Shown: positions 275-51,716, numbered from the stretch's first letter. The stretch: DNA of 55,890 nt from a virus (IMGVR_UViG_3300044719_000150); one strand, 5' to 3'. A program made the numbers and translations. Notes: a model not told the origin generated them from the letters alone.

Positions 275-286
275 CTAACGTATCAC
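275..286 (-). promoter_or_regulatory. Recurrent motif GTGATACGTTAG (extended -10-like, TGnTACGTT) upstream of guide units
   Basis: Exact motif, 5 nt upstream of unit 226-269; overlaps the TGA stop of 283-588. Confidence 0.7.
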
Positions 287-588
287 GGCTCCGGTTCGTC
301 GTCCAGCTCGGGTCGGATCTCACGCCAGAGAGTTCTGCGGGCATGACCCTTAGCCATGCCCATCAGCCCCTCCAAGAGCTGCTGCTGGAACATCAGGTTC
401 TCACGCAGCGCGGGCAGCACCACGGGGATCTTCTCCCACGGCACCATGAACGAGGTGGGCATGTCCTCGGGCAGCTCGGCGGGGTCTCCCTCGTATACGG
501 CCTCGTAGTCGTTTCCTTCGGTGCGCGCCTGCTCCAGCTCGCGAATGACGCGCTTGTAGTGTTCGATCGAGTCCACAAGGTCACCCAT
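283..588 (-). CDS. Hypothetical protein
   Basis: 101-aa ORF overlapping the end of the Thg1 gene, same strand. Confidence 0.7.
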   Translation of the reverse strand: MGDLVDSIEHYKRVIRELEQARTEGNDYEAVYEGDPAELPEDMPTSFMVPWEKIPVVLPALRENLMFQQQLLEGLMGMAKGHARRTLWREIRPELDDEPEP

Positions 589-1408
589 GGAACAGCTCCG
601 GCCGCCCCAGGTCCCGCAGAACCTCCGGCGGGAAGTACTCCCGCACCGCCGCGTCCACCGTGGACTGTGACGGACCGCCGAATGAGGGCATCTCCGGAAT
701 ACGCCCCACCAGCCAGTTGTCCGGCTGCGCCTCGAACAGCGGCGCGGCGTCGAAGCGCCAGTAGGAGCCGGTGTCCGTGTCCGTGCGGGTGCAGACCTGT
801 CCGTAGCGGGTCGAGCGCGGGTAGTCCTCGAAGATCACCTGGCGGTCGCGCGCCAGCATCGTGATCATCTGCTCGCGGTTCTTGCCGTACAACTCAGAGA
901 CCGAGAAGTGCGCCTGCGCCGCCATCGACACCGCGTTGCGGTACGCGTCGCGCTGGCGCCACACGAAGTAGTTCGCCACCTCCACCGGGTTCGGCAGGGC
1001 GAACACCCGCGCGTCGAACGCCAGGTAGTGCGGCAGGTCATGCAGCTGGCGCTGAATCGCCAGGGACACCGAGGCGATACCGGCGCTTACCGAGGCGATC
1101 TTCTGTGTCCGGCCACCGAACCACGGCTGCTGCGTGAACTCCTCATAGGCGCACACCAACACGCTGATCTCATCGGACTGCTGATAGGCCAGCACCGCAC
1201 CCTGCACCTCGCGGCACAGATCCTGCATCACGTGGCCCATCATCTCCACGAAGCGCATGTCGTACGGTTTGTCCGCCGTCCGCAGCAGGGAGTGCGCCGC
1301 GCGCACGTCCACCCGGACCACGAAGGGCAGGTAGCGCGTCAGGGTGCTGCCGGTCGCGGCCTCGTACGCCTTCATCCGGTCGCCGAGCGCGGTCCCGTCA
1401 CCAGCCAT
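581..1408 (-). CDS. thg1: tRNA-His guanylyltransferase / Thg1-like 3'-5' polymerase
   Basis: DRMKAYE, VVRVD-x-R-x-x-H, YQQSDEISV, FGGRTQKIAS, AFDARVF, NYFVWRQRDAYRNAVS match the Thg1 family; start reassigned to ATG 1408. Confidence 0.9.
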   Translation of the reverse strand: MAGDGTALGDRMKAYEAATGSTLTRYLPFVVRVDVRAAHSLLRTADKPYDMRFVEMMGHVMQDLCREVQGAVLAYQQSDEISVLVCAYEEFTQQPWFGGRTQKIASVSAGIASVSLAIQRQLHDLPHYLAFDARVFALPNPVEVANYFVWRQRDAYRNAVSMAAQAHFSVSELYGKNREQMITMLARDRQVIFEDYPRSTRYGQVCTRTDTDTGSYWRFDAAPLFEAQPDNWLVGRIPEMPSFGGPSQSTVDAAVREYFPPEVLRDLGRPELFHG

Positions 1409-2234
1409 AGGGCAGCACATCCTTCGAACCGGCCATGGTCCGCACGCGCGGCTTCTCACCCCGGTAGCGGATGAAGATCGAACCCGCCATGGTATTCGCG
1501 TCGATAACGCCGTCCCCATCCCTGATGGTGATGCCGCCAGACATCGTCTTGGCGATGACACCGCCGAAGGCCTGCTGGATCTTGATGCTGCCAGCCATGG
1601 TGTTCGCGTAGAGAGTCCCCAAGGACCGCTCCACATGTATCGATCCGGATTCGGTCACGGCACGGACAGACGCGGCGGTGGCGATACGCACGGAGCCGCT
1701 CACGATGTTGGCGGTCACATGCCCGAGGTCTCCCTGAGTTTCGAGGTAGCCCGACGAGCAGTCGAACTTCACTTCCGAGCCGCTTGGCACCAGTGCCGAG
1801 ATGACGTACTTGGGGGCGCGCACGCCGTTCACGGTGGTGACACCGTTCGTGGTCTGGATGCTGACACCGCCGCGACTGGTATAGTTGCCGTCCTCCCGCA
1901 GCCGCAGGATGAGGCGGTCGCCGTCCTGTCGCAACTCCATGGCTTCGAAAGCCGGGTGTCGCGCGTCCAGCGGCTCGCCTTCGATCGTGACGCGCACCGA
2001 GGCGCGGGGCACATCGTCGCCGACCACCACAAGCCCCGTCGCAAGCGTCGAGACGTCGAGCTTGATCGGGCCGGGGAAGTTGGCGGTCAGGACGCGCTCG
2101 TGGGACGACCCGCGCGGCGGCGCGTCTTCCGGCTCGGAGGGCCGGGCATCCTCGGGCTCCTGATGAGGACGAGCATCCTGTGGGCCGAGCGCCGCGCCGA
2201 TGAGCCCTTCGACGAGCTTCAGGAAATCGGTCAA
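1398..2234 (-). CDS. DUF4097-like beta-strand repeat protein
   Basis: Repeated T(M/E)(A/S)G(S/G)I motifs in the C-terminal half; TTG start with AAGGGGG RBS. Confidence 0.7.
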   Translation of the reverse strand: MTDFLKLVEGLIGAALGPQDARPHQEPEDARPSEPEDAPPRGSSHERVLTANFPGPIKLDVSTLATGLVVVGDDVPRASVRVTIEGEPLDARHPAFEAMELRQDGDRLILRLREDGNYTSRGGVSIQTTNGVTTVNGVRAPKYVISALVPSGSEVKFDCSSGYLETQGDLGHVTANIVSGSVRIATAASVRAVTESGSIHVERSLGTLYANTMAGSIKIQQAFGGVIAKTMSGGITIRDGDGVIDANTMAGSIFIRYRGEKPRVRTMAGSKDVLPYGW

Positions 2235-2255
2235 GTTAGCCCCCTTCTCGTTGGC

Positions 2256-2299
2256 GCACGGCGGACATGATCTGGCTTTCGACTTCTTTTTGGCCGCGC
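2256..2299 (-). ncRNA. tigRNA-like guide unit
   Basis: GCGCGG-CCA-aaaagaagt-CG-aaag-CCA-gatcatgtc-CG-CCGTGC; 6-bp stem with one G-U. Confidence 0.85.
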
Positions 2300-2306
2300 T
2301 GCGGGA

Positions 2307-2318
2307 CTAACGTAGCAC
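2307..2318 (-). promoter_or_regulatory. Recurrent motif GTGCTACGTTAG
   Basis: One mismatch to consensus; 7 nt upstream of unit 2256-2299. Confidence 0.7.
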
Positions 2319-2425
2319 GCGCATGACGAAGACCGCAACACCCTCCGCGAGAAAAGAGCGCGAACCACGTATCGTACACACCTGAAATAGCCTATCTTGA
2401 TTAAAGAACGACAACAGGAGGATAC

Positions 2426-2605: not shown

Positions 2606-2789
2606 CGAGCCGATCATCGCGTTCGGTGCGCCCTACCACGTGGACGACACCCGCGTGATGTTCTGCCAGCACGGCCAGCGCTGGTGCGGATGGGTGCGTA
2701 CGAGCAACAACGCCACCGACCACGAGCGCTACACCGAAGAGCGCAACAAGCACGAGAGGAACTGCAAGGGAGGGCTGATCCTGCTGTGA
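2598..2789 (+). CDS. Small hypothetical protein
   Basis: Overlaps the previous gene; its stop overlaps the next start (TGATG). Confidence 0.55.
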   Translation: MTDEPIIAFGAPYHVDDTRVMFCQHGQRWCGWVRTSNNATDHERYTEERNKHERNCKGGLILL

Positions 2790-3259
2790 TGCTCAACCAC
2801 CTGACCGAACTGGCCCGCGCCCGCGCATGGCTGCCGGAACCGGAGGAGCGCAGGCGCATCCGCATCGAAGCCGGGATGACCATCAAGGCCCTGGCGGACT
2901 ACATCGGCATCTCGGTGAGCGCGATGAACTCGCTGGAGCGCGCCGAGCACCCCAGCGACAAGCATCTGGTCAAGTATGTCACAGCGCTCAAGGCATTGGA
3001 CGGCCCGTCAAAGTCGCCCCAGCAGTCCGGTCTGACGCCCGAGGAGGTCACGGAGCTGCGCGGACGCTGGGAGGAGCACGCCTGCGGATCCTGCGGCGGC
3101 CTGCACACCACTGCTGTCAAGGCTCCCGGATCGTGCCCGCGTATCAAGCGGATCGCCTACGACGCCCAGGGCCGTATGCTCGAAGTCGAATACTGGCCGG
3201 AAGGTAAATGGCCGAAGGACGGCATCATCTGGCCCGACGAGCTGGTGGCAGAGGAGTAG
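2789..3259 (+). CDS. XRE-family HTH regulator with a C-terminal Cys/His-containing domain
   Basis: RRRIRIEAGMTIKALADYIGISVSAMNSLER is an HTH_3 pattern; followed by HACGSCGGLH...CPR. Confidence 0.8.
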   Translation: MLNHLTELARARAWLPEPEERRRIRIEAGMTIKALADYIGISVSAMNSLERAEHPSDKHLVKYVTALKALDGPSKSPQQSGLTPEEVTELRGRWEEHACGSCGGLHTTAVKAPGSCPRIKRIAYDAQGRMLEVEYWPEGKWPKDGIIWPDELVAEE

Positions 3260-3305
3260 CCCGGCGCGGTCTCGGCATGGAATTCGTGGGACATTGGGCG
3301 CCGGG
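3260..3305 (-). ncRNA. tigRNA-like guide unit, convergent with the HTH gene
   Basis: CCCGGCG-CCC-aatgtccca-CG-aatt-CCA-tgccgagac-CG-CGCCGGG; perfect 7-bp stem. Confidence 0.8.
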
Positions 3306-3310
3306 CGAGA

Positions 3311-3322
3311 ATAAAGTAGCAC
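3311..3322 (-). promoter_or_regulatory. Motif variant GTGCTACTTTAT (extended -10-like)
   Basis: TGnTAnnnT retained; 5 nt upstream of unit 3260-3305. Confidence 0.6.
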
Positions 3323-3600: not shown

Positions 3601-3675
3601 CCGCGCGTCCGAAGTATGGGTGCCGGGAGCTGGATGGCGCGGCAGTTCATTGGGTTACGTGCGTGCCATGGCGCC
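3601..3675 (-). ncRNA. Two abutting tigRNA-like units (34-nt period) directly after the stop of 3675-4301
   Basis: GGCG-CCA-tggcacgca-CG-taac-CCA-atgaactgc-CG-cg-CCA-tccagctcc-CG-gcac-CCA-tacttcgga-CG-CGCGG. Confidence 0.85.
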
Positions 3676-4301
3676 TAGTCGCGAACCGCGTCAACGATTG
3701 CTCGGCCGACCCGCTCCCTGGTCTTCTCCTCGATCCCGTCGAGAAATGCCTCCATCTGGGGCATGCTGAATGTGAAGGACGGCTGGCTCTGACCCCAGAC
3801 GTTGCCAGTCTCAGCGTAGGTGCGTCGTTGATCCATGGGCTCCAGGTACTGGTTGAGCCTCGTGACGGCCTCGTTATAGCGTCGAGTGCGCGCGTTATCG
3901 ATCATCTTGGCTCGGTCGCGCTCGGCTTCCCGCTGCTCCCGGACCTCTCGCCATGGGCCCTTGAGAGGCGTCAGGCTGAACAGTAGGTCGAGCCGACCCA
4001 CTGTCCCGCCGGGAACTTTCCCGGTCGCCAGAACGGCGTCGAGGACGGCCTGCCGGTCTACTTGCTCCAGCTCCTCGCCGACGCCTCGCAGGACCAGGTA
4101 GCCGGTCTGCCGGGTGCCGCTGCTGAGGAAGCGGCTCTTCGCCTTGTATACGCGCACCTCTCGGCCGACGGCGATCTCGTATCGGCCGCCGTCGTGACGG
4201 CCGAAGGTCTGCGTCACGAGCTTTGTGGTGAGCAGGAGTGCCGCCTCGGAATAGGCGCCGAAGGCGTAGATACCGCCGGGCACCAGATCGTCTTTGCGCA
4301 A
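3675..4301 (-). CDS. Hypothetical protein
   Basis: 208-aa ORF, TTG start after AGAGGAG. Confidence 0.75.
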   Translation of the reverse strand: MRKDDLVPGGIYAFGAYSEAALLLTTKLVTQTFGRHDGGRYEIAVGREVRVYKAKSRFLSSGTRQTGYLVLRGVGEELEQVDRQAVLDAVLATGKVPGGTVGRLDLLFSLTPLKGPWREVREQREAERDRAKMIDNARTRRYNEAVTRLNQYLEPMDQRRTYAETGNVWGQSQPSFTFSMPQMEAFLDGIEEKTRERVGRAIVDAVRD

Positions 4302-4373
4302 AGTGATCTCCTCTCGGTCGGGGCTGTCACGGATACGTTAGTCCATGACTGGCGCAGTGTCAAGTGTGAAAAG

Positions 4374-4422
4374 CCCGGCGGCGCGGCCACCTTGGGTGAC
4401 GGATGCCTACGGAGCCGCCGGG
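4374..4422 (-). ncRNA. tigRNA-like unit with a degenerate first box, followed by TTTT; probably also terminates the RNA ligase transcript
   Basis: CCCGGCGG-ctcc-gtaggcatc-CG-tcac-CCA-aggtggccg-CG-CCGCCGGG-cTTTT. Confidence 0.65.
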
Positions 4423-5692: not shown

Positions 5693-5734
5693 GTCGGCGT
5701 AGACATCTTGGATCTTGAGAAGTGAATGGCCGAC
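5693..5734 (-). ncRNA. tigRNA-like guide unit
   Basis: GTCGG-CCA-ttcacttct-CA-agat-CCA-agatgtcta-CG-CCGAC. Confidence 0.8.
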
Positions 5735-5738
5735 CGGA

Positions 5739-5750
5739 CTAACGTATCAC
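5739..5750 (-). promoter_or_regulatory. Recurrent motif GTGATACGTTAG
   Basis: Exact motif 4 nt upstream of unit 5693-5734 and about 20 nt before the divergent portal start. Confidence 0.7.
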
Positions 5751-17248: not shown

Positions 17249-17752
17249 ATGCCGTTGGTGTCGATGCAGACCTACTGCCGCGATCTTCTCGACGGCACCG
17301 CGATGCCGCTGGGCCTGGCTCCCATGAAGGCCTACATCACCCCGCCCAACCCCGGCGTCGCGGAGCAGCCCACGCTGTACATCTGGGACGCGGAGGGCGA
17401 GGAGCGGCGCGAGAGCATGCCGCGCGCCAAGCCGAACTTGCTGTCTACCGGTGCGTTCAAGTTCCTCGAACATAAGATCGAAATGTACGTCACGATGGTG
17501 GACTACGCCGACGACGTGCAGGTGGACAGCAACTTTCCGGCGTGCATCGATGCGGTGCTCGCTGTGCTGCGCAACACGCAGATGCCGGTGCTCAACCGCG
17601 TGGACCCGGTCACTGGCGGCGTCTCGGACGTCACGATGATCGGCGAGCGGATGCGTTGGCGCCAGGGCGTGCCGCGCTCCCTGAACGACCAGCGCATGCT
17701 CTGGTACGTCTGCTGGCTCCAGGTCGATCTAGTGGAGAAGATCCAGGCCTAG
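17249..17752 (+). CDS. Neck / tail-terminator-like protein
   Basis: Position in the neck module; 167 aa. Confidence 0.55.
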   Translation: MPLVSMQTYCRDLLDGTAMPLGLAPMKAYITPPNPGVAEQPTLYIWDAEGEERRESMPRAKPNLLSTGAFKFLEHKIEMYVTMVDYADDVQVDSNFPACIDAVLAVLRNTQMPVLNRVDPVTGGVSDVTMIGERMRWRQGVPRSLNDQRMLWYVCWLQVDLVEKIQA

Positions 17753-17850
17753 CCGGGGCGGCGGAACATTGGGCGTCGCATGCGATATGGCCCCGGCCGG
17801 AGCCTGATGCCGGGCGCGGCTAGTAAGAGTCTCGGACGATCATTGGCCCG
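17752..17850 (-). ncRNA. Two tigRNA-like units antisense to the virion operon (17811-17850 degenerate; 17752-17797 canonical)
   Basis: CGGG-CCA-atgatcgtc-CG-agac-TCT-tactagccg-CG-CCCG and GCCGGGG-CCA-tatcgcatg-CG-acgc-CCA-atgttccgc-CG-CCCCGGC. Confidence 0.85.
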
Positions 17851-17856: not shown

Positions 17857-17868
17857 ATAACGTATCAC
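17857..17868 (-). promoter_or_regulatory. Recurrent motif GTGATACGTTAT
   Basis: One mismatch to consensus; 6 nt upstream of unit 17811-17850. Confidence 0.7.
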
Positions 17869-28245: not shown

Positions 28246-28291
28246 CCGGCGGCGCGGGCGCGTTGAGTTTCGCTTCAGTTTTGGCCACCGG
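28246..28291 (-). ncRNA. tigRNA-like unit antisense to the virion operon
   Basis: CCGGTGG-CCA-aaactgaag-CG-aaac-TCA-acgcgcccg-CG-CCGCCGG; 7-bp stem. Confidence 0.8.
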
Positions 28292-28297: not shown

Positions 28298-28309
28298 ATA
28301 ACGTATCAC
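28298..28309 (-). promoter_or_regulatory. Recurrent motif GTGATACGTTAT
   Basis: One mismatch to consensus; 6 nt upstream of unit 28246-28291. Confidence 0.7.
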
Positions 28310-34737: not shown

Positions 34738-34802
34738 CTACCTCTCCCTCTCGTCGTGCCCAACGCCTCCCGGCGACAGGACCTTACATCTTACAGGCTA
34801 CG

Positions 34803-35180
34803 CTAGTCTTCGTCTAGGCCTTCGGTCCTACGTTGCGCCCGCTGGGCCGCCTCGTCGTCGATGCACAGCGTCGCCACCCAGTAGCCGACCTGAACCAAAG
34901 TACCGGGCCTGCCGCAGAACTCGCAGATCGTGTACGACTCCTGCTCGTACCTGCGCACCACCTCATGCGCCGCCTGATTACCGGCGATGTAGAGCCGCAG
35001 ACCGCCGAACTTCGTTTTGACCTGGCGCGCCTCATAGGTGGGGCACACGGTCAGTAGCTCGGCGTGAGCGCGGGCCACCAGATCGCCCCAGCCGGGGCAG
35101 TATTCCTGGGGCAGGTCAGGGATCTGCTTCGGCCCCAGTCCGTGCCTGGGCAGGCCGGGGATCTCCTCTTGCTCGTTCAC
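34803..35180 (-). CDS. Conserved phage hypothetical protein (QVKxKFGGLR...CExCGxPG)
   Basis: Motif seen in the translation; GTG start after GGGAGG. Confidence 0.75.
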   Translation of the reverse strand: MNEQEEIPGLPRHGLGPKQIPDLPQEYCPGWGDLVARAHAELLTVCPTYEARQVKTKFGGLRLYIAGNQAAHEVVRRYEQESYTICEFCGRPGTLVQVGYWVATLCIDDEAAQRAQRRTEGLDED

Positions 35181-35193: not shown

Positions 35194-35352
35194 TTGCGGC
35201 GGTCTTGCTCTGGTTGTCGAGTGTGGGATGGCCGCAGCGGGGTCATCGTGGTCCTGCGTACGTATTATGGCTGCGGCGCGGTTATCCTGACCCTCATGAG
35301 CGGTATGGCCACAGCGTAAGATCCTTGGGATGCGGTGCGGGACTGGCTGCGG
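35194..35352 (-). ncRNA. Four-unit tigRNA-like (TIGR-type) array, 38-39 nt period
   Basis: ccgcag-CCA-gtcccgcac-CG-catc-CCA-aggatctta-CG-ctgtgg-CCA-taccgctca-TG-aggg-TCA-ggataaccg-CG-ccgcag-CCA-taatacgta-CG-cagga-CCA-cgatgaccc-CG-ctgcgg-CCA-tcccacact-CG-acaa-CCA-gagcaagac-CG-ccgcaa. Confidence 0.92.
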
Positions 35353-35364
35353 CTAACGTATCAC
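35353..35364 (-). promoter_or_regulatory. Recurrent motif GTGATACGTTAG abutting the four-unit array
   Basis: Exact motif; overlaps the TGA stop of 35361-35720. Confidence 0.7.
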
Positions 35365-35720: not shown

Positions 35721-36075
35721 GCTCTTGCTCCTCCGCTTGCCGTGCTGCCCGCTCCAGCAGTTCGACGACTTCCTCGGCCGTGCGCCCTGGAGTGTCGTTG
35801 AAAGCGTACAGGGTTTCAAAGCCTGGCAGCAGGCCGTTGACGAACACCCGCGCCATATCGGCGAGATCCATGCCTTCCGGAGTGTCGCCGATGCCGACCG
35901 GCGAGCCGGTGGTCGCGAGATTGATCGCGCCGACCGCGCACAGGCACGCGCCAGGAATCGCGTTGCCGCCGTCGTCGTACAACGTCCAGTCCTTCTGGAT
36001 GAAGCCGCGCACACGGATCAGCTCAGCCGCCCGCCAGAGCGCTTCCGGCAGAGTGCTGGCCAGCGCGTCAAGCAT
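35659..36075 (-). CDS. DUF6197-like actinophage protein
   Basis: AAELIRVRGFIQ...CAVGAI...FNDTPGRTAEEVVELLERAA. Confidence 0.7.
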   Translation of the reverse strand: MLDALASTLPEALWRAAELIRVRGFIQKDWTLYDDGGNAIPGACLCAVGAINLATTGSPVGIGDTPEGMDLADMARVFVNGLLPGFETLYAFNDTPGRTAEEVVELLERAARQAEEQERGEATGDPPGQRPDHDGDRG

Positions 36076-36955
36076 TGCGCTCCTCGTGCAGGCGCTTGCC
36101 CTCCAGCCACAGGTCGCGCAGGATCTCCTTGCTCATCTTGCGCATCGCGCGGGCGTGCTGGTGTCCGGCCGACAGTGGCGAACCGGCGAGGGCGGGCTTG
36201 CCGGAGGGGCCGCAGCGCTTGCAGTCCATCCGGTGCACGCCGTCCGCGTACTTGGCGCGGGTCTCGTCGTAGATGCGCCGATAGGGCGAGCAGTCGCAGC
36301 CGGACTGGTGCTTGACCGTCCCATCCTCCTGCTTGCAGCCCTTCTCCAACTGCTTGAGGCAAGCCTCCGCGATGAGGTAGACGCGCATCTTCGCGGCGTC
36401 ATTCCAGTTGGACTTGACGCCCTTGCGCCGGTGCGGGGCGATGCCGAGGTCGCCGGGCGGCAGGCCCTGTTCGCGCGGCACGACCTCCAGCGTCGCCGGA
36501 TCGATGCGCCACACGCCGTAGCCGCAGAAGCTCCACAGCTCGGAGACCAGGCGCGGCCGGTTGAAGATCGGATGCCAGTACGGGTCGCCGATCGCGGCGA
36601 GCAGCCGACCGCCCTGCTTGAGGCCGATGCCCTTGGTCTTCTTCACCCAGGGGCCGAGCGGATGCTGCTTGACGCCCTGCTCCAGGGATTTGACCGCGAG
36701 CGTCTCGGCCTCGCGCAGGGTGGCGACGATCTCCACGAGGCGCGCGACGGCCGGATGGCCCTCGTCCAGCCCGAACCCGCGCATCTCCCCGTCCTCGTCG
36801 GGCTCGGTGCGGGTGAACTGGCGCAGCCGGTTCTCGGTGGCGATGCGCAACTTCTCTAGGTCGGTCAGGGTGTCCGCGTGGACGGCGAGCATCGCGTCCT
36901 CGGGCCTTCGCGGGACAGGCTGGACAACGACAGGTTCCATGGTGGCTGTGGTCAT
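36068..36955 (-). CDS. tasA: TasA-like Nop-domain protein (IS110/Nop56-58 related) with no RuvC or HNH nuclease domain
   Basis: Coiled coil (LEKLRIATENRL), then KGIG...GRLLAAIGDP, LWSFCGYG, RRKGVKSNWN, YRRIYDETRAKY and HARAMRKMSKEILRDLW, resembling the IS110 C-terminal half; no N-terminal DEDD domain; CCA-N9-CG array directly upstream. Confidence 0.85.
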   Translation of the reverse strand: MTTATMEPVVVQPVPRRPEDAMLAVHADTLTDLEKLRIATENRLRQFTRTEPDEDGEMRGFGLDEGHPAVARLVEIVATLREAETLAVKSLEQGVKQHPLGPWVKKTKGIGLKQGGRLLAAIGDPYWHPIFNRPRLVSELWSFCGYGVWRIDPATLEVVPREQGLPPGDLGIAPHRRKGVKSNWNDAAKMRVYLIAEACLKQLEKGCKQEDGTVKHQSGCDCSPYRRIYDETRAKYADGVHRMDCKRCGPSGKPALAGSPLSAGHQHARAMRKMSKEILRDLWLEGKRLHEERNA

Positions 36956-36976: not shown

Positions 36977-37084
36977 GCGGCGTTACGGCAATGGGTGGCG
37001 CTAGGCAGTGGCCGCGTGTGCTGAGTGGGCTCTGAAGCGGGTTTGGCGGCTGATGTCTGGTCTTGCGAAGGAGGTATGGCCGCG
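36977..37084 (-). ncRNA. Three-unit compact TIGR-type array directly upstream of the TasA-like gene
   Basis: cgcgg-CCA-tacctcctt-CG-caaga-CCA-gacatcagc-CG-CCA-aacccgctt-CA-gagc-CCA-ctcagcaca-CG-cgg-CCA-ctgcctag-CG-ccac-CCA-ttgccgtaa-CG-ccgc; 33-35 nt period. Confidence 0.85.
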
Positions 37085-37617: not shown

Positions 37618-37685
37618 AGTAAGTGACTCCTCCCTGGTTGCCTACGGTTAACGTACCATGGACAGCCAGGGAGGCGCAACATACG

Positions 37686-37982
37686 TTAGTCCCCGACGAC
37701 GGCGAGGATGTCGTACGGGTTGAGCAGCCGATACTTCTCCCCGCCGCGCTCGATCTCCTGGCCGACGCTGCGGTTGATCAGAACCGTCTGGCCGACCTGC
37801 ACCTCCGGCTTGACCAGCGCGCCGCCGTCCGTGATGCGGCCCGGCCCGGTCGCCACCACGCGCACCTCGGCCAGCGGGGCGACGCTCTGCGGCACAATCA
37901 GGCCGCCGACCTTGTGCTCCGCCTCGTTGACCGGCGCCAGCGTCAGGATGCGCTCTCCACACGGAGCGATGTCAATCGTCAT
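37686..37982 (-). CDS. groES: GroES/Cpn10-like co-chaperonin
   Basis: PCGERIL...GGLIVP...VVATGPG...EVQVGQTVL...GQEI...KYRLL...DILAVV. Confidence 0.9.
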   Translation of the reverse strand: MTIDIAPCGERILTLAPVNEAEHKVGGLIVPQSVAPLAEVRVVATGPGRITDGGALVKPEVQVGQTVLINRSVGQEIERGGEKYRLLNPYDILAVVGD

Positions 37983-42737: not shown

Positions 42738-42934
42738 CGCGCCACCGCCGGGGAGCCGCTGCCGATCGCTACTTGCACCGTGGGCATGCTTACGCTAAGC
42801 TCCTCGCATATTGAAGTGAACGGAGCGCGCCCTGACATCCGGCTAAAGATGGGGCGCGCTCCGTGCTGCCTGCCCGCTATCGTACGCGGGCCGAGGCCGT
42901 CTCGCAACGGCCGAACGGCAATCAACCACTTGCG

Positions 42935-43469: not shown

Positions 43470-43481
43470 GTGATACGTTAG
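43470..43481 (+). promoter_or_regulatory. Recurrent motif GTGATACGTTAG in the divergent intergenic region
   Basis: Exact motif between the leftward replication operon and rightward 43515. Confidence 0.65.
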
Positions 43482-43514: not shown

Positions 43515-43730
43515 GTGAGCAAGAAGTACGAACTGTCGATCACCGGCCCCGACGCCGAGCCCGAAGTGCCCGGCATGCCGGAGGTGATGGAGATCAGCAA
43601 CGGGACCACGGCGTGTAACACGTACGTGCGCCTCGGGCAGCGCGGCAACGACGTCACCCTCAAGGCGCCGAACGGCCACAAGATCCGCTACGCGACCACG
43701 CCGGACCCCTGGGGCCAGCCCCTCGGCTAA
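43515..43730 (+). CDS. Small hypothetical protein
   Basis: GTG start after GAGGAGG; its stop lies inside a motif copy. Confidence 0.65.
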   Translation: MSKKYELSITGPDAEPEVPGMPEVMEISNGTTACNTYVRLGQRGNDVTLKAPNGHKIRYATTPDPWGQPLG

Positions 43731-43738
43731 CGTATCAC
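43727..43738 (+). promoter_or_regulatory. Motif copy CTAACGTATCAC (inverse orientation) abutting a guide array
   Basis: Exact match; TAACGT is also a TAnnnT hexamer. Confidence 0.55.
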
Positions 43739-43893
43739 CGGCGGCCAGGTTCTACTCGTCAGCCATTCCTCCTTCGCCGCCGAAGCACGACCACCGCCAG
43801 CCAGTTGCAGTGCGCAAGCCCAGTGATCGAACGCTGGCGATCCAAATCACACCGGCCACTTCGGTAGCGACACCCAAGATGAACCCGCCGGTG
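43739..43893 (+). ncRNA. Three-unit stem-closed tigRNA-like array (about 55-nt period)
   Basis: CGGCGG-CCA-ggttctact-CG-tcag-CCA-ttcctcctt-CG-CCGCCG; CGCCAG-CCA-gttgcagtg-CG-caagc-CCA-gtgatcgaa-CG-CTGGCG; CACCGG-CCA-cttcggtag-CG-acac-CCA-agatgaacc-CG-CCGGTG. Confidence 0.92.
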
Positions 43894-43934
43894 CGCAGCA
43901 CGCCCAAGAAACCCGATACCAAGGAGGCATACAC

Positions 43935-44642: not shown

Positions 44643-44653
44643 CACCCGAGCTT

Positions 44654-46385: not shown

Positions 46386-46386
46386 C

Positions 46387-46839
46387 ATGGCGGGCGACAC
46401 GTCCATCACGCTTGAGGGCAGCCTGACGAGGGATCCAGAGGTCTCATTCGGCAAGTCCGGCAAGGCGTGGACACGCTTCGCCGTCGCCGTCAACTCGCGC
46501 CGCAAGACACAGGACGGCAAGTGGGAGGATGGCGAGGCCGCGTTCTGGGAGTGCTCCGCGTTCGGTCCGATCGCCGAGAACATCGCCGAGAGCCTGCACA
46601 AGGGCGACCGGGTGATTGTAGTGGGCACACTGCGTCCGGACGTTTACAAAGACAAGGAGGGCAACGACAGGCGCTCGATCAAGGTGATCGTCAGCAACGC
46701 CGGTCCTTCCCTCCTGTTCGCCACGGCCACCGTCGCCAAGACACAGCGGGGGGGCGGGCAGCAGGCCCAGGGCGGGCAGCAGACCGGCTACGGCGACGAT
46801 CCCTGGACTGCGGCCTACGACGACACCCCGCCCTTCTGA
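46387..46839 (+). CDS. ssb: Single-stranded DNA-binding protein
   Basis: ITLEGSLTRDPE...FAVAVN...FWECSAF...AENIAESLHKGDRVIVVG; acidic C-terminal DDTPPF. Confidence 0.95.
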   Translation: MAGDTSITLEGSLTRDPEVSFGKSGKAWTRFAVAVNSRRKTQDGKWEDGEAAFWECSAFGPIAENIAESLHKGDRVIVVGTLRPDVYKDKEGNDRRSIKVIVSNAGPSLLFATATVAKTQRGGGQQAQGGQQTGYGDDPWTAAYDDTPPF

Positions 46840-47384
46840 GCGGGCGGCATCGTGCGGGGAGGCGGGAGCGCTGGCGCGAGTTTGCGCGCCAGCTCCCGCG
46901 CCTCATCCAAGCGGCTATAGCGGACCAGGTGCACGAGCCGCGCCATGGCGGCGAAGGTGGCGCGCGGGAGCACCACCGATTCGTCGTCGGCCAGGTCTGT
47001 CGGCAGCCAGCCGCGCCGGTACAGCGCCACGGCCAGCTCTGAGCGGTTGGCCACTCCCAGCCGGACCAGCGCGTTCCTCAGATGCGTTTTGACCGTGTGC
47101 TCCGAAATGCCCAGCTCTTCGGATATCCGCAGGTTGCTGTGGCCTTGGGTGACCAGGAGAGCCACGTCCCACTCGCGCTCGGTCAGCGGGCACGAGCGGG
47201 GGCGCTCCAGGACGGCGCGCGTATGCTCCCGCATCTCGCGCCGGACCGCCCTGCCCCCGCGCATCGCGGAGAGCTTGTCGAGATAAGCCTCGCGCATGGG
47301 TTCGCATTGGGGGCAGATGGCCTGATGGAGGGACTGGTGCCTGCGCAGACCGTCGATGGTGCCGCAGCTCTCGTGGCTTTTCAT
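46815..47384 (-). CDS. LuxR-family HTH regulator with an N-terminal Cys/His motif
   Basis: PLTEREWDVALLVTQGHSNLRISEELGISEHTVKTHLRNALVRLG; CGT...RH...CPQC; no receiver domain. Confidence 0.85.
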   Translation of the reverse strand: MKSHESCGTIDGLRRHQSLHQAICPQCEPMREAYLDKLSAMRGGRAVRREMREHTRAVLERPRSCPLTEREWDVALLVTQGHSNLRISEELGISEHTVKTHLRNALVRLGVANRSELAVALYRRGWLPTDLADDESVVLPRATFAAMARLVHLVRYSRLDEARELARKLAPALPPPRTMPPAQKGGVSS

Positions 47385-47842
47385 GCCCTCTTCCGGGGGT
47401 AGTTGTGTGCGGCGAGCGCCTTGAGGACATCCTCTTCGCGCCACAGGGTTCCCATGCGCAGCGTGTCGGCGCGTTGCAGCTCAGGCCACAGGTTGGCGAC
47501 GAAGTGGACGTTCCCGCTGGAGATCTTGGCTAATTGCGCGAAGTGCTGTACTCCGATGAGGGGCCCCTGGTAGCCGTACTCCCAGTCCTCCACATCGGGA
47601 GCGGTTTCGGGCACACGCAGCGCGCGCGAGGTCCCCCGGAGGGCGGGCAGCACGTCCCGCAAGAACCAGTAGGGGCGCCGCTCGCCGGACATCAGGAAGC
47701 CCTGGGGGGCGGGCAGTGTCTTGCGTAGGTCATGGCTGACGTATTGCTTGTGCCAGCCCCCGATGTCGGCGATCTCGGAGATGCCCGCATAGAGGCCGCG
47801 CCAAGCGCGTTCGGGGTTGGGAAAACCGGAAGGCACATTCAC
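47381..47842 (-). CDS. Protein with two AlpA/excisionase-like HTH repeats
   Basis: GISEIAD...PYW and IGVQHFAQ...LWREEDV duplicated pattern. Confidence 0.55.
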   Translation of the reverse strand: MNVPSGFPNPERAWRGLYAGISEIADIGGWHKQYVSHDLRKTLPAPQGFLMSGERRPYWFLRDVLPALRGTSRALRVPETAPDVEDWEYGYQGPLIGVQHFAQLAKISSGNVHFVANLWPELQRADTLRMGTLWREEDVLKALAAHNYPRKRA

Positions 47843-47919
47843 TCCTCTCTTGACGAAAGATTATCTGGCGCCGCCGGGCAAGCACAAGCGCCCGGCCGTG
47901 GGGACCAGGCGCTCGGCTC

Positions 47920-47965
47920 GCGGCGGCGTGCACCCGTTGGGTAACGCATTCACTTGGGCCGCCGC
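47920..47965 (-). ncRNA. tigRNA-like guide unit
   Basis: GCGGCGG-CCC-aagtgaatg-CG-ttac-CCA-acgggtgca-CG-CCGCCGC. Confidence 0.8.
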
Positions 47966-47969
47966 AGAC

Positions 47970-48125
47970 CTAGGACCACCAGGACCAGTCGGTCCAGTCG
48001 GTACCCGTGCTCTCGCTGTCGCAGGCCAGGACAACCCCCGCGACAAGTGACCCGAATAGCGCGATGTCCAGCAAGATCCACCACCCATGCGGGTGCGTCA
48101 TCATGTGAATGATGTGGACGATCAT
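47970..48125 (-). CDS. Small membrane protein (51 aa; not in the ORF track)
   Basis: MIVHIIHMMTHPHGWWILLDIALFGSLVAGVVLACDSESTGTDWTDWSWWS. Confidence 0.5.
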   Translation of the reverse strand: MIVHIIHMMTHPHGWWILLDIALFGSLVAGVVLACDSESTGTDWTDWSWWS

Positions 48126-48165
48126 TGGACGCGGCCACCCCAGAAGCTGATCGAGGCCCAGGTCA

Positions 48166-48357
48166 TCAGTCGCCCTTGCTCCACATCTCCACCAGCGCGT
48201 CGTAGATCTGCCCGGTGAGGGTCACGGCGCCGAGAAGGCCCCAGAACGCGAGATCGCTCGCCTTGTGGGTGGGGATGACGAAGTAGGCGAACAGGCCCGG
48301 CCCGGCCACCGCCAGAATCAGCGCGAGCAACCACGCCATGAAACGTCCAAAGGTCAT
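48166..48357 (-). CDS. Small two-TM membrane protein
   Basis: MTFGRFMAWLLALILAVAG...; overlaps the upstream stop. Confidence 0.6.
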   Translation of the reverse strand: MTFGRFMAWLLALILAVAGPGLFAYFVIPTHKASDLAFWGLLGAVTLTGQIYDALVEMWSKGD

Positions 48358-48587
48358 CAGTCGTCCTCCTTGATCTCGAAGTTGATGACGAACACCCGGC
48401 CACCGAAAGAGTCGAAGTGGTACCGGCGGGCGTCGTATGCCGCGTTGTGCGCGCCTTGGCTGGTGTCGTGAACGTGGCACTCGGAGCTGTCGCCGCCGAG
48501 CAGATATCTCGTGGCGCGCTCTTGCGCCTCATCCAGGTCGCTCGCGGTGACATAGAGCGTCGCACGCCGCGACTCGCTTATCCGCAT
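48357..48587 (-). CDS. Hypothetical protein
   Basis: C-terminal part of ORF 48357-48722. Confidence 0.55.
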   Translation of the reverse strand: MRISESRRATLYVTASDLDEAQERATRYLLGGDSSECHVHDTSQGAHNAAYDARRYHFDSFGGRVFVINFEIKEDD

Positions 48588-48591
48588 GCCG

Positions 48592-48894
48592 TCACCACTC
48601 ATCCGGGTCGTAGCGTCGCAGCCGCTCAAGCAGCTGCTTGCGCGCCAGGTCCACCGTGTCGCCATAGGCGGTCCACTCTGGCGCGAACTTCGGCGCACGG
48701 GCAGCCCATCGTTCGCGGTCACCGTGCATCTCGGGCCACGCCTCCGAGCCGCCGATCGCTTCCAGGATCACCAGCACGTCAACGCCGAGGTCGATCAAGG
48801 CGCCGATCCGGTCGGTCTTGTAGAGGATCTGCTCGCGCTCACTGATAATCGGCTTGGCGAGCTGCCCCAGCAGCTTCTCCTCGTACTCGCTCAC
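48592..48894 (-). CDS. Hypothetical protein
   Basis: GTG start after AAAGGAGGG. Confidence 0.6.
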   Translation of the reverse strand: MSEYEEKLLGQLAKPIISEREQILYKTDRIGALIDLGVDVLVILEAIGGSEAWPEMHGDRERWAARAPKFAPEWTAYGDTVDLARKQLLERLRRYDPDEW

Positions 48895-49307
48895 TGCCAG
48901 CCCTCCTTTCCCTCGGTCACTGTGCTCAGGAACTCCACGATCTTTTCGTCCGCCATCAACTCGGCGACACGCTGGCGCTCGCGCAGGACGTAGTGCTCCT
49001 GCCATGCCGCCAGGCCTGGCCCCATGGGAACTGCATAGGCGTTGCGTCGCCCGTTGGCCAGTGACGAGCGCATCCGCTCCAGGGCCATGCGAGGGTTGCC
49101 GCCGTCGCGAATGCCCTCCCGGAGGTGCGTCCAGATCCGCAGTGCCTCACGGGCTCGCACGAAGGCAGCCAGGTCGAGTTCGCTGATCTTGTGGTCGTGC
49201 AGGATCGCCTCGGCCGCGAAGCGCCCGGCCCTGGCCCGGCGCACCTCGGCGTTGCCGACCATGTGCGTGATGTAAAGATCGACGTCGCGGTCGGTCAGCT
49301 CGGCCAT
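48891..49307 (-). CDS. Hypothetical protein
   Basis: ATG at 49307; stop overlaps the next start. Confidence 0.6.
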   Translation of the reverse strand: MAELTDRDVDLYITHMVGNAEVRRARAGRFAAEAILHDHKISELDLAAFVRAREALRIWTHLREGIRDGGNPRMALERMRSSLANGRRNAYAVPMGPGLAAWQEHYVLRERQRVAELMADEKIVEFLSTVTEGKEGWQ

Positions 49308-49309
49308 GT

Positions 49310-49639
49310 CTAGACCTCGACCGTGATGGTGCCCGCGCCGCGCCGGGCCTCGATCTCGCGGACCCAGGCCTGATAGCCGCCTCCCCAGGCGAAGGCCGAG
49401 CCGGTGACGCTGAGGGCGTTCTTGCCGCGCTCCCACGGGGTGTCGCCGGGCCAGCTCGCACTGGTGAGGTTCGGGTGCTTGGTGGCCAGCTGGCCGAGGA
49501 TGCAGAAGTCGCAGTCCCAGAGGTCCAGCCGTTCGACGTTGATCATGTCGGCCCAGCCGGGCGCGGCCTCGTCGAGGAATGTGGCGGCTTCGGGGATCTG
49601 GTCAGCGGTGAAGTGGTGGTCGTGACTTTCGAAAGGCAT
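49310..49639 (-). CDS. Hypothetical protein (LD...PGW...CILGQL family), paralog A
   Basis: AATFLDEAAPGWADMINVERLDLWDCDFCILGQL; AAAGGAGG RBS. Confidence 0.75.
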   Translation of the reverse strand: MPFESHDHHFTADQIPEAATFLDEAAPGWADMINVERLDLWDCDFCILGQLATKHPNLTSASWPGDTPWERGKNALSVTGSAFAWGGGYQAWVREIEARRGAGTITVEV

Positions 49640-49666
49640 GGCGACCTCCTTTGATCGGGGACAGTG

Positions 49667-49713
49667 CGAGCGGCGAGGCCACTCTGGATTTCGCTCGGTG
49701 GAATGGCCGCTCG
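49667..49713 (-). ncRNA. tigRNA-like guide unit (10-nt first spacer)
   Basis: CGAGCGG-CCA-ttccaccgag-CG-aaat-CCA-gagtggcct-CG-CCGCTCG. Confidence 0.8.
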
Positions 49714-49722
49714 GTACGAGGA

Positions 49723-49734
49723 TTAACGTAGCAC
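49723..49734 (-). promoter_or_regulatory. Recurrent motif GTGCTACGTTAA
   Basis: 9 nt upstream of unit 49667-49713. Confidence 0.65.
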
Positions 49735-49738
49735 GGCA

Positions 49739-50161
49739 CTATTCCTCCGTCAAGGAGCCCCCGAAGGGCCGTCCGCCGCGCGCACCGCCACGCAACACCA
49801 CCTCGTTGAACCATGCGCCATCCAGGAGGTTCACGCGCCGCTCGCGGCCCACCTGCGCCCACACCGGGCCGTCGAAACCGTATTCATACATCTGCTTAGC
49901 CGTCGGCCAGGCGCCGAAGATGAACATCGCGGCGCCGTGGTAGCTGTCTAGCGACGCCGCCGCCAGCTTCGGGTGCATGATGGTGAGCATGTACTGCCTC
50001 ACCCGCCGGTCGCGCTGCGTCAGCTGGGCGAGAATGCAGTTGCGGCTGTCATCCATGTCGATGCAGGCGGCCCTGATGTATCGTTCCCAGCCGGGCAGGC
50101 GTAGGTCCAGCAGGTCGGCACCGCGATTGGCGCGGGCCACGGTCGAGGTCGCGTGGGGCAT
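49739..50161 (-). CDS. Hypothetical protein, paralog B of 49310-49639
   Basis: GADLLDLRLPGWERYIRAACIDMDDSRNCILAQL; start after GAGAGGAG. Confidence 0.7.
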   Translation of the reverse strand: MPHATSTVARANRGADLLDLRLPGWERYIRAACIDMDDSRNCILAQLTQRDRRVRQYMLTIMHPKLAAASLDSYHGAAMFIFGAWPTAKQMYEYGFDGPVWAQVGRERRVNLLDGAWFNEVVLRGGARGGRPFGGSLTEE

Positions 50162-50249
50162 GGTTCTCCTCTCGTCGGGGTAGGGTTGCACTAACGTATC
50201 CCGTGCGCTATGTTTGCGGCAATCCGCACTCACAGGGAGGAGACAACAC

Positions 50250-51233
50250 TTGTCTGCTTTTACCAAAGAACCCGGAGCACCCGCCGTAAGCGGCATCTCC
50301 ATCGCCGAATTGCTGGAGCGGGACGGCGTCGATGTCAATCGCGACATCGCCCAGGCGTGGCTGAATACATACAACAAGCAGAATCGGGACCTCAAGCCCG
50401 CGCGCCTGGCCCGCTACACCCGCGACATGGCCAACGACCGCTGGCTGCCCGAGGGCGAACCGATCCGCTTCGACGAGGACGGCCGTCTAGCCGACGGCCA
50501 GCACCGGCTCGAAGCCCTCATCCGCGCTTCCATCCAGCGCGAGCAGCGCGGGGTCTCCGGACCGGAGTGGAGCTTGAAGTTCCTGGTCCTGACCGACCTG
50601 CCCCGCGAGACGCGCCTGGTCAGCGGCACCGGCGCGCCCAAGACGCTCCAGGACGCGGCGCTGATCTCCGGCAACGTGCGCTACGCCAACAACGTGGTGC
50701 CCATCGGCAACCGCGTCTACAACTGGCTCAAGGCGCAGAACCCGGTGCCGACTGGCGGGAACCGGATCACCCTGACCGAGCTGGAGTTCGCCGACTTCTA
50801 TGCCGAGCACATGGGCGAGATCAACCGGGCGGCATACTGGGGCGGCCACCTCAAGCAGCGCATCAAGCTGCCCGCGCTCGCCGGGGGCTTCGCGTACTTC
50901 CTGATCTACGAGGCCAGCGAGGAGCACCATGCGCGCACCGACGTCGATGTGCCCGCCCTGTTCTTCTCGGCTCTGGCCACCGGCGCGGAACTGATCGAGC
51001 GGCATCCGGCCAAGACGCTGCGCGAGACGATCGCCACCCGGCGCGACAACGGAACCCTGAAGACCGACATCGCGCTGGCGCTCACCCTGCGCGCCTGGAA
51101 CGCATTCGCCGAGGAGCGGCTCTACGGGTCGGCAATCCTGCCTGCCGCGTCGGTGACCAGCGCCAACCTGGTCCTGCCGAAGGCGCCCAACCGTAACTGG
51201 AGCGGCGCGATCTACAGCCCGACGCGGCACTAG
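50250..51233 (+). CDS. ParB-like (DGQHR) domain protein
   Basis: KQNRDL...RYTRDMANDRW...EPIRFDEDGRLADGQHRLEAL; TTG start after GGGAGG. Confidence 0.75.
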   Translation: MSAFTKEPGAPAVSGISIAELLERDGVDVNRDIAQAWLNTYNKQNRDLKPARLARYTRDMANDRWLPEGEPIRFDEDGRLADGQHRLEALIRASIQREQRGVSGPEWSLKFLVLTDLPRETRLVSGTGAPKTLQDAALISGNVRYANNVVPIGNRVYNWLKAQNPVPTGGNRITLTELEFADFYAEHMGEINRAAYWGGHLKQRIKLPALAGGFAYFLIYEASEEHHARTDVDVPALFFSALATGAELIERHPAKTLRETIATRRDNGTLKTDIALALTLRAWNAFAEERLYGSAILPAASVTSANLVLPKAPNRNWSGAIYSPTRH

Positions 51234-51243
51234 CCGCTAGGAT

Positions 51244-51341
51244 GGTGGACGCCGTGGCGCAGCCTGGGCGTGACGGGTTGAGCTACCCGTCAGGGTTTCG
51301 CGGGCAAGTTCCCTGCCCCCAGGCTGCGCCACCGGCTCACC
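51244..51341 (+). ncRNA. Predicted three-way-junction structured RNA
   Basis: 15-bp stem GTGGCGCAGCCTGGG (51254-68) / CCCAGGCTGCGCCAC (51318-32) enclosing hairpins TGACGGGT/ACCCGTCA and GGGCA/TGCCC. Confidence 0.6.
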
Positions 51342-51344
51342 GGA

Positions 51345-51447
51345 CCACGTGGCTGGACCGGATGTCCAGTGGTAACTGGGCTACCCGGTAGGCACAGCCC
51401 CACTATTCGTACGGGGCGCTAAGCGGGTTCGATTCCCGCTGCGTGGA
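51345..51447 (+). ncRNA. tRNA-like RNA (acceptor stem plus canonical T-arm; non-canonical D and anticodon regions)
   Basis: CCACGTG/TGCGTGG 7-bp acceptor plus discriminator A; GCGGG-TTCGATT-CCCGC T-arm; three internal hairpins; no encoded CCA. Confidence 0.6.
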
Positions 51448-51472
51448 CTTGTCAACGCATGAATGAAAGGAG

Positions 51473-51703
51473 GTGCATTTCTTGGCACTGGCATATATTG
51501 CTTGGGTGACCGGCATGGTCCTGACCATGAAGTGGCTGGTGAACAATGTTTACCGGGATGATCTGGAGGGCCTAGCCCGGCGCCTGCTCGTGGTCATGAT
51601 GTACGCCATGGCCATCCTGTTCCCGCTCACCTGGGCCTGGGTCGCCGCCGCGCGCACCCCGCGCCTGATCCGGCGTCTGCGCCCTTACCAGCGCAGGCAC
51701 TAA
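51473..51703 (+). CDS. Small two-TM membrane protein
   Basis: GTG start after AAAGGAG; hydrophobic segments. Confidence 0.65.
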   Translation: MHFLALAYIAWVTGMVLTMKWLVNNVYRDDLEGLARRLLVVMMYAMAILFPLTWAWVAAARTPRLIRRLRPYQRRH

Positions 51704-51716
51704 CGTAGCCTGATAA

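What the first reader, a model, noticed from the sequence alone, without database searches (positions are those of the whole stretch)
275..51711. A 12-bp motif, CTAACGTATCAC/GTGATACGTTAG, recurs about 15 times at gene boundaries and marks guide loci
Copies are at 275, 2307, 3311, 4330, 5739, 17857, 28298, 35353, 37678, 39800, 43470, 43727, 49723, 50191 and 51700 (0-3 mismatches). Read as GTG(A/C)TACGTTA it is an extended -10 (TGnTAnnnT), 0-9 nt upstream of guide units at eight loci. At 43727 and 51700 the inverse orientation (TAACGT, also TAnnnT) precedes the guides. Five copies overlap stop codons (283, 35361, 37686, 43730, 51703). It could be a bidirectional -35-independent promoter, an operator for a phage HTH protein (2789, 46815, 47381 or 55260), or both.
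Basis: partly seen in the sequence, partly recalled or inferred. Interest (0 to 1): 0.7.

Follow-up and report, generated by a model that had tools for sequence, protein, structure and literature searches.

The report
Two-way phage promoter starting guide RNAs
A short DNA signal repeated at about 20 gene boundaries of a soil-bacterium virus is the core of its promoters, works in either direction, and appears to switch on both ordinary genes and scattered single guide RNAs of a TIGR-Tas system, starting them at or near their first base.

Summary
The motif is real: 12 copies within 2 mismatches against 1.2 expected, all non-coding, kept at the same junctions in seven related phage contigs. The window is part of an actinophage with a nuclease-less TasA and stem-loop TIGR guides dispersed over about 16 loci.

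The core (TACGTTA/TAACGTA) is a housekeeping-sigma -10 box readable on both strands. A -35 box lies 17-18 bp upstream in both orientations, the extended-10 TG follows the direction of the cargo, and 16 of 19 divergent junctions carry a copy. '-35-independent' is therefore only partly right.

Ten window guide loci begin directly behind a copy. Across the clade the guide stem most often starts at the predicted +1, and the CUU processing mark of other stem-loop systems is largely absent. This suggests guides made as primary transcripts, a question left open in 2026; the statistical support is modest.

Several positions stay fixed whichever way transcription runs, so a phage regulator probably also binds the site (inferred, about 50%; protein unidentified). 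The scan had already reported this motif as a promoter core elsewhere in this genome; the guide link and the direction tests are added here.

The parts
275..286 (-). Motif copy; overlaps TGA of gene 283-588; -10 TACGTT pointing into guides 226-269 and 171-215
171..269 (-). Two stem-loop TIGR guide units (226-269, 171-215)
2307..2318 (.). Motif copy at a divergent junction; on - strand TTGCGG-18-TACGTT (-35 at 2333-2338)
2254..2302 (-). Guide unit; predicted +1 at 2302
3311..3322 (-). Variant copy (GTGC TACTTT) pointing antisense into guide 3259-3306
3259..3306 (-). Antisense stand-alone guide; stem starts exactly at predicted +1
4330..4363 (-). Promoter TTGACA-17-TAACGT for gene 3675-4301, built on the motif copy at 4330
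5739..5750 (.). Exact copy at the divergent junction between RNA ligase gene (-) and portal gene (+)
5693..5734 (-). Guide unit; 5-bp core stem starts at predicted +1; spacers differ in the close relative L455 while motif and stem are unchanged
17857..17868 (.). Copy inside the virion operon; GTG reading points antisense into two guides
17752..17850 (-). Two guides antisense to the virion operon (17811-17850, 17752-17797)
28298..28309 (.). Copy inside the virion operon; motif plus a guide-like unit with different spacers kept in five phages
28246..28291 (-). Antisense stand-alone guide
34795..34808 (-).
35353..35364 (-). Exact copy overlapping TGA at 35361, ahead of a four-unit array; predicted +1 falls inside the first stem (exception)
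35196..35352 (-). Four-unit guide array
36068..36955 (-). tasA, 295 aa, Nop-domain protein without a nuclease domain
   Evidence: phmmer to TaTasR 9MTY E=1.1e-7, matching only residues 148-296 of that protein; relatives in Actinomycetota prophages
36977..37083 (-). Compact guide array in front of tasA; no adjacent motif, about 600 nt downstream of the tandem copies
37645..37689 (-). Two inverted copies about 33 bp apart (cores 37649 and 37682), one on the groES stop, the other TTGCGC-18-TACGTT; likely tandem promoters of the tasA operon; second copy flipped in L122
39800..39811 (-). Copy (GTGA TACGCT) after dnaB, ahead of gene 39370-39771; no guide
42787..42800 (.). Missed copy (TACGCTA) upstream of the replication initiator gene
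43470..43481 (.). Exact copy at a divergent junction; on + strand TTGCGG-17-TACGTT; no guide
43727..43738 (+). Exact copy on the TAA at 43730; -10 TAACGT ahead of three guides
43739..43892 (+). Three guide units; first stem starts at -1 of the predicted start
49723..49753 (-). Promoter TTGACG-17-TACGTT with TG extension
49668..49712 (-). Guide unit
50186..50222 (.). Copy at a divergent junction: -10 of TTGCCG-18-TACGTT on - strand, and in the spacer of TTGCAC-17-TATGTT on + strand
51700..51711 (+). Copy on the TAA at 51703 ahead of a guide
51717..51763 (+). Guide unit
53384..53448 (+). Variant core TACCATA followed by a guide (53404-53448)
46815..47444 (-). Candidate reader: LuxR/GerE-type HTH protein with an N-terminal Cys/His cluster, present in G002, L122 and L123
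   Evidence: binding untested
47381..47842 (-). Candidate reader: HTH-like protein present in G002 and L122
   Evidence: binding untested
2786..3259 (+). Candidate reader: XRE-type HTH protein, 65% identical in G002
   Evidence: binding untested

Best explanation
The motif is this phage clade's standard promoter core. TACGTTA and its complement TAACGTA both read TAnnnT, so host RNA polymerase with the housekeeping sigma factor can use it as a -10 box on either strand, with starts 18 bp apart. Direction and strength are set by add-ons: TG in front of TACGTT and/or a -35 box 17-18 bp upstream. One copy can serve two divergent operons. The phage has placed single stem-loop TIGR guides directly behind many copies, so transcription starts at or just before the 5' base of the guide stem and the 5' end needs little or no processing. 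tasA itself lies downstream of two copies, so protein and guides would be expressed together. Shown from sequence: enrichment, position, -35 register in both orientations, direction-dependent TG, guide adjacency. Inferred: actual transcription, that both directions fire at one site, and the guide 5' ends. Inferred more weakly (about 50%): a phage-encoded DNA-binding regulator also reads the roughly 12-bp site across the -10 and switches these promoters together.
For: 93 of 94 core sites in 7 phage sequences are non-coding; 16 of 19 divergent junctions carry a copy against 2 of 22 convergent ones; both orientations are about equally common in front of genes. A -35-type hexamer lies at spacer 17-18 in 19/114 (TACGTT) and 8/114 (TAACGT) sites, against at most 3 at any other spacer. 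TG is present in 26/36 sites whose cargo lies on the TACGTT side and 6/36 whose cargo lies only on the other side (p=4e-6). One orthologous promoter has its copy flipped in L122 with the -35 retained. Forty motif-guide pairs were found, against 16 of 2400 random positions; the stem start is most often exactly +1 (10 of 40; 14 at +1/+2 against 8.2 by permutation, p=0.015). CTT at the stem base: 2/47 clade guides against 123/427 in other TasA loci. For a second reader: G at -2 and C at +9 are kept on the unused side (25/36 and 26/36); 30/47 TTG-17/18-TAnnnT sites in the clade use this hexamer family against 20/148 in other TasA loci; the 12-mer occurs once in 43 Mb of five actinobacterial genomes and 36 times in 0.24 Mb of the clade.
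Against: No transcript or binding data. The stem-start signal is modest: wider windows give p=0.08-0.10, stem length does not correlate significantly with offset, and orthologous sites are not independent. At the array behind the tasA operon the predicted start falls inside the first stem (35360, L122, L124). About six window guide loci have no adjacent copy, so these must be cut from longer RNAs, and guides in 5' leaders still need a 3' cut. Three leaderless genes in G002 fit a second -10 register five bases further on. No site shows a -35 box on both sides. No integrase was found in G001 or G002, which removes the usual reason for a genome-wide repressor. The true host is unknown, so the host-genome control is indirect.
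Confidence: 0.65

Rival explanations
1. Promoter only, no second reader: every copy is selected to work in both directions (sense cargo plus antisense RNA), superimposing TGN-TANNNT on one strand and SRN-TANNNT on the other, and copies are alike because the phage duplicated one successful promoter.
For: The reverse-strand flank often fits the mycobacterial SRN extension (53 of 96 sites with cargo; PMC3898074). Bidirectional promoters are common on mobile DNA (PMC10268837). No integrase, sigma region 2 or WhiB was found in G001 or G002.
Against: SRN does not follow cargo direction (22/36 against 21/36). The housekeeping sigma does not need a fixed ACG centre, yet 80 of 147 non-coding TAnnnTA sites have it. 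The motif is also kept where it is not the -10 of the best-fitting promoter (spacer of TTGCAC-17-TATGTT at 50191).
Confidence: 0.3
2. Phage-specific promoter: a phage-encoded sigma factor, sigma adaptor or activator changes polymerase specificity to this sequence, so it is inactive in uninfected cells.
For: Clade-specific, rare in five actinobacterial genomes. Protein 46815-47444 has weak hits to sigma region 4 and WhiB-like profiles. Most copies lack a recognisable -35.
Against: Canonical TTGACA/TTGACG boxes at 17 bp and a direction-dependent TG are host-sigma features. No sigma region 2 or WhiB gene in the sequences searched, though these are incomplete. This grades into the best explanation if the second reader is an activator.
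Confidence: 0.12
3. Stoperator- or SAS-like site: a repressor road-block or translation-linked signal and not a promoter.
For: Asymmetric 12-13 bp repeat in short gaps, often on stop codons, as for cluster A stoperators.
Against: Stoperators are oriented with transcription (PMC4351075); this motif is not (37 against 33). It marks divergent and not convergent junctions, has -35 boxes in register, and has no fixed distance to start codons.
Confidence: 0.04
4. Part of the TIGR machinery: a guide insertion or processing signal, or the target of a guide.
For: 15 of 47 strong clade guides have it within 40 nt.
Against: 0 of 427 guides from other TasA loci have it. Most copies have no guide. No guide matches the motif or any other site in the window at <=3 mismatches, or motif sites in relatives at <=2.
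Confidence: 0.04

Closest known systems
Bidirectional bacterial promoters from -10 symmetry, 18-bp class (Warman et al. 2021, as described in PMC10268837 and PMC12825309)
   Same: One -10 region readable on both strands, positions -7 and -11 reciprocal, predicted starts 18 bp apart; extra elements bias the direction.
   Different: One fixed sequence is reused at 20-45 sites per genome in a phage clade, with fixed centre and flanks, and its cargo includes guide RNAs.
Actinobacterial SigA/HrdB promoters (TANNNT, TGN or SRN extension, TGAC -35; PMC3898074, PMC6742748)
   Same: TAnnnT, TG extension, TTG(A/C)C hexamer at 17-18 bp, purine at predicted +1 in 27 of 40 guide cases.
   Different: Far more uniform than host promoters or those of other TasA-bearing actinophage loci; used in both orientations.
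Stem-loop TIGR-TasA systems (PlTasA, BlTasA, MbTasA; PMC12045711; bioRxiv 10.64898/2026.09.09.750476)
   Same: Solo Nop-domain TasA; stem, CCA, 9 nt, CG, short loop, CCA, 9 nt, CG, stem.
   Different: Described guides lie in arrays beside or inside tas and are cut at a CUU at the stem base. Here they are dispersed over the genome, mostly single, mostly lack CUU, and sit directly behind a promoter core.
Actinophage genome-wide repeats: cluster A stoperators, cluster K SAS, cluster O 17-bp repeats (PMC4351075, PMC3203893)
   Same: Short repeat at many gene boundaries of an actinophage, probably protein-bound.
   Different: Not oriented with transcription, not tied to start codons, not palindromic, almost never in coding DNA, and itself a -10 box.
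Phage P1 C1 operators and Streptomyces phage phiC31 promoter repeats (from memory, not checked here)
   Same: Genome-wide asymmetric site overlapping many phage promoters.
   Different: Here the site coincides with the -10 hexamer on both strands; the regulator is unidentified and no integrase was found.

Membership tests
Bidirectional promoter, 18-bp class | -10 hexamer (T-12, A-11, T-7) on both strands with -7/-11 reciprocal | tested here: met
   TACGTT and TAACGT share TAnnnTA
Bidirectional promoter, 18-bp class | Cargo in both directions from one site | tested here: met
   16/19 divergent junctions, nearly all with a single copy; 24 sites with cargo on both sides
Bidirectional promoter, 18-bp class | Two mapped TSSs 18 bp apart | not testable with these tools
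   Needs TSS mapping; some G002 sites fit 23 bp instead
SigA/HrdB-type promoter | -35 hexamer at 17-18 bp and/or TG extension | tested here: met
   19/114 and 8/114 at spacer 17-18; TG follows direction
SigA/HrdB-type promoter | Transcription by host holoenzyme without phage proteins | not testable with these tools
   Needs reporter or in vitro assay
Cluster A stoperator | Single orientation relative to transcription | tested here: not met
   37 against 33 sites
Cluster K start-associated sequence | Fixed position just upstream of start codons | tested here: not met
   Distances from 17 to more than 100 nt, both directions
Phage repressor operator | Sequence fixed beyond polymerase needs and phage-specific | tested here: met
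Phage repressor operator | Temperate lifestyle or identified cognate repressor | tested here: inconclusive
   No integrase in G001/G002; four HTH-type candidates, none assignable
Stem-loop TIGR-TasA | Nop-domain Tas protein without nuclease | tested here: met
   E=1.1e-7 to 9MTY, C-terminal part only
Stem-loop TIGR-TasA | Two 8-12 nt spacers between box C (CCA/CTA) and box D (CG/TG), closed by a stem | tested here: met
   18 strong units against 0-1 in shuffles
Stem-loop TIGR-TasA | [quoted passage not shown] | tested here: not met
   2/47 against 123/427, p=8e-5; common but not universal in the family
Stem-loop TIGR-TasA | Guides bound by TasA and directing DNA binding | not testable with these tools
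   No convincing target in the sequences held

The most novel reading that the evidence does not exclude
This clade runs its TIGR-TasA system as individually promoted guide genes: each guide is a primary transcript whose 5' end is set by the promoter in place of CUU processing, new guides are added by hitch-hiking on the spare direction of existing two-way phage promoters (including antisense inside the virion operon), and one phage regulator binding across the -10 switches genes, tasA and guides together.
Probability: 0.3. Interest if true: 0.8.

Novelty: new variant of a known kind. Interest (0 to 1): 0.57.

Why it matters
The 2026 TIGRFinder preprint says that sequence alone cannot tell whether tigRNAs have their own promoters, and that stem-loop guides lack the known processing site in the protein. 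This clade gives exact, testable predictions (promoter, +1 base and guide 5' end) for about 40 guides. It also shows how an RNA-guided system can spread through a genome: any two-way promoter has a spare direction that can carry a 45-nt guide. A 12-bp two-way promoter core, and its regulator if there is one, would be a compact tool for actinomycetes. The promoter itself is a variant of a known kind, and nothing is shown experimentally.

Tried and rejected
Rfam: no match. No whole genome was held. Guide self-targets in the window and cross-targets in 1.9 Mb of relatives: nothing better than scattered 2-mismatch hits, and the motif is not a target. The motif as a general TIGR signal was rejected: absent before all 427 guides of other TasA loci. 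Collection scans with motif patterns gave mostly chance hits in unrelated contigs, adding only G002/G003 and L455. A host regulon box is not supported in five genomes. Sigma region 2, WhiB, and tyrosine and serine integrases were not found in G001 or G002; these are fragments. A second register (TA-nnn-T starting at the last TA) fits three leaderless G002 genes but would start transcription inside many guides and has no matching -35 peak, so it was rejected as the general register. An A at +23 in the logo is explained by box C and ribosome-binding sites. Free-energy folds of guides are unremarkable (z from 0.4 to -1.8). The built-in promoter scan misses these sites because it demands TATAAT-like hexamers. 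A literature search for the hexamers found no description. Warman 2021 itself was not held and is cited through two later papers. No cultured phage is a close relative.
Full report
1. Observation. All fifteen coordinates hold: five exact copies of CTAACGTATCAC, four with one mismatch, three with two, three with three. Twelve matches within two mismatches compare with 1.17 expected. The three-mismatch cut-off alone is chance-level (25 against 17.6), but the core TAACGTA occurs 14 times against 0.7. All 16 core sites are non-coding in a window that is about 87% coding. The five stop-codon overlaps are right and a sixth (34803) was missed, along with further copies at 37649 and 42791 and several variants.

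2. Setting. The window is part of a 66% G+C tailed phage with portal, replication initiator, DnaB, Lsr2 and GroES genes. The scan index places it in a genome of about 120 kb with 41 tRNAs (unchecked); the relative G002 has at least 36 tRNA genes. Gene 36068-36955 (-) encodes a TasA: it matches the Nop part of TaTasR (9MTY, E=1.1e-7) and has no nuclease domain, and its named relatives lie almost all in Actinomycetota genomes. The 'guides' are stem-loop TIGR units (stem, CCA, 9 nt, CG, 4-5 nt, CCA, 9 nt, CG, stem): 18 strong units against 0-1 in shuffles, matching the published box definitions. They are spread over about 16 loci.

3. Conservation. Five syntenic phages with TasA at 62-75% identity (L001/G001, L121-L124), the 91-kb G002 and the close relative L455 keep the motif at the same junctions. 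At 5739, L455 has the same motif and stem but different spacers. At the antisense site 28298 five phages keep the motif followed by a guide-like unit with unrelated spacers. In the 98 more distant TasA loci the motif never precedes a guide (0 of 427), and the core was not enriched in those loci I inspected. It is a clade feature, not a TIGR feature.

4. It is a -10 box, in both orientations. In seven sequences 93 of 94 cores are non-coding. Sixteen of 19 divergent junctions carry a copy against 2 of 22 convergent ones (p about 3e-6, which was run with 21). The two orientations are about equally frequent between co-directional genes (37 and 33). A -35-type hexamer (TTGAC, TTGCC, TTGCG, TTGCA) lies 17-18 bp before TACGTT at 19 of 114 sites and before TAACGT at 8 of 114, against at most 3 at any other spacer. 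Examples are TTGACG-17-TACGTT at 49723 and TTGACA-17-TAACGT at 4330. The TG of the extended -10 follows the cargo: 26 of 36 sites with cargo only on the TACGTT side, 6 of 36 with cargo only on the other (p=4e-6). At the promoter after groES five phages use TTG-17/18-TACGTT while L122 has the element flipped, TTGCCT-18-TAACGT. These are features of actinobacterial housekeeping promoters (PMC3898074, PMC6742748), and the geometry is the 18-bp bidirectional class (PMC10268837, PMC12825309).

5. Relation to guides. Forty motif-guide pairs were found in eight sequences, whereas 16 of 2400 random positions are followed by such a unit. Taking +1 as the seventh base after the hexamer, the stem most often begins exactly there (10 of 40; 14 at +1 or +2 against 8.2 by permutation, p=0.015), and +1 is a purine in 27. 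This is suggestive only: wider windows give p=0.08-0.10, sites are partly orthologous, and at the array behind the tasA operon the predicted start falls inside the first stem. The need for a promoter is clearest at 3311, 17857 and 28298, where guides lie antisense between co-directional genes with no other transcript on that strand. Clade guides rarely have CTT at the stem base (2 of 47) compared with other TasA loci (123 of 427; p=8e-5). CUU is the proposed processing mark, and the same preprint leaves open whether guides have their own promoters. About six window loci have no adjacent copy and leader-embedded guides still need a 3' cut, so processing is reduced, not abolished. The tasA operon lies behind two tandem copies (cores 37649 and 37682).

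6. Is there a second reader? Host sigma needs only T, A and T of the hexamer, yet 80 of 147 non-coding TAnnnTA sites have the ACG centre. In an unbiased list of TTG-17/18-TAnnnT sites, 30 of 47 in the clade use this hexamer family against 20 of 148 in other TasA loci. G at -2 and C at +9 are kept on the side without cargo (25 of 36, 26 of 36; p below 1e-5 against 33% background). The motif is also kept where it sits in another register: in the spacer of TTGCAC-17-TATGTT at 50191, and five bases before the -10 of three leaderless G002 genes. The 12-mer GMTACGTTADKC occurs once in five actinobacterial genomes and 36 times in the clade. A phage protein binding across the -10 is the simplest account, but selection for real two-way use plus duplication of one promoter is a live alternative. 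No integrase, sigma region 2 or WhiB was found in two incomplete relatives. Of the candidates, the LuxR-type 46815-47444 is present in three relatives; nothing links it to the site.

7. Rejected. Stoperator (orientation is not fixed), start-associated sequence (distance is not fixed), guide target or TIGR signal, and a guide at 4330 (it overlaps a -35 box and a terminator-like hairpin).

8. Verdict. A real, clade-wide, two-way promoter core: a new variant of a known kind. An earlier scan report on another part of this genome reached the same promoter reading (e1-1876761); that agreement is not independent evidence. What this window adds is the directional tests and the placement of single TIGR guides at the predicted start site, which makes an open question about stem-loop guide biogenesis testable. 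Promoter function about 0.85, guides as primary transcripts about 0.6, second reader about 0.5. Interest 0.57.

Noticed in passing
L131:9988-10865 (G002 66888-67765, - strand): The related phage contig encodes ribosomal proteins L13 and S9 in tandem (Pfam E=9e-45 and 1e-43) directly behind an exact motif copy at 67790.
   Followed up: partly
phage records H6-H30: TasA homologues at about 50% identity occur in 83 cultured Mycobacterium phage records such as Bethlehem, annotated as hypothetical protein or transposase; a tractable laboratory system for TIGR-TasA.
   Followed up: no
window 20158-20761: An HNH endonuclease gene inserted in the tail operon has TACGAT, six bases and then ATG: a leaderless promoter in the same register as the motif.
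   Followed up: partly
window 14412-14963 (-): An insertion of different composition after the capsid gene, with an ORF antisense to the virion operon, possibly a second homing endonuclease.
   Followed up: no
window 4369-4422 (-): A hairpin followed by TTTT ending the RNA ligase gene; its loop resembles a degenerate guide read from the other strand.
   Followed up: partly
L137-L234 (many loci): Many actinobacterial TasA loci carry stem-loop guides inside the tasA reading frame, often just after the conserved ELWAYCG segment, in line with the 2026 preprint.
   Followed up: no
L129:9600-18600 (G002 tRNA cluster): Guide units and motif copies are interleaved with 36 tRNA genes.
   Followed up: no
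window 581-1408 and 4429-5523: Thg1-like tRNA-His guanylyltransferase and RNA ligase genes, each in a motif-led unit behind a guide; a tRNA repair or maturation theme.
   Followed up: no
L130 (G002 42900-50250): Five near-identical TTGACG-17-TA(A/G)CGT promoters with a shared spacer start head a block of small co-directional genes, like promoter cassettes of a variable region.
   Followed up: partly
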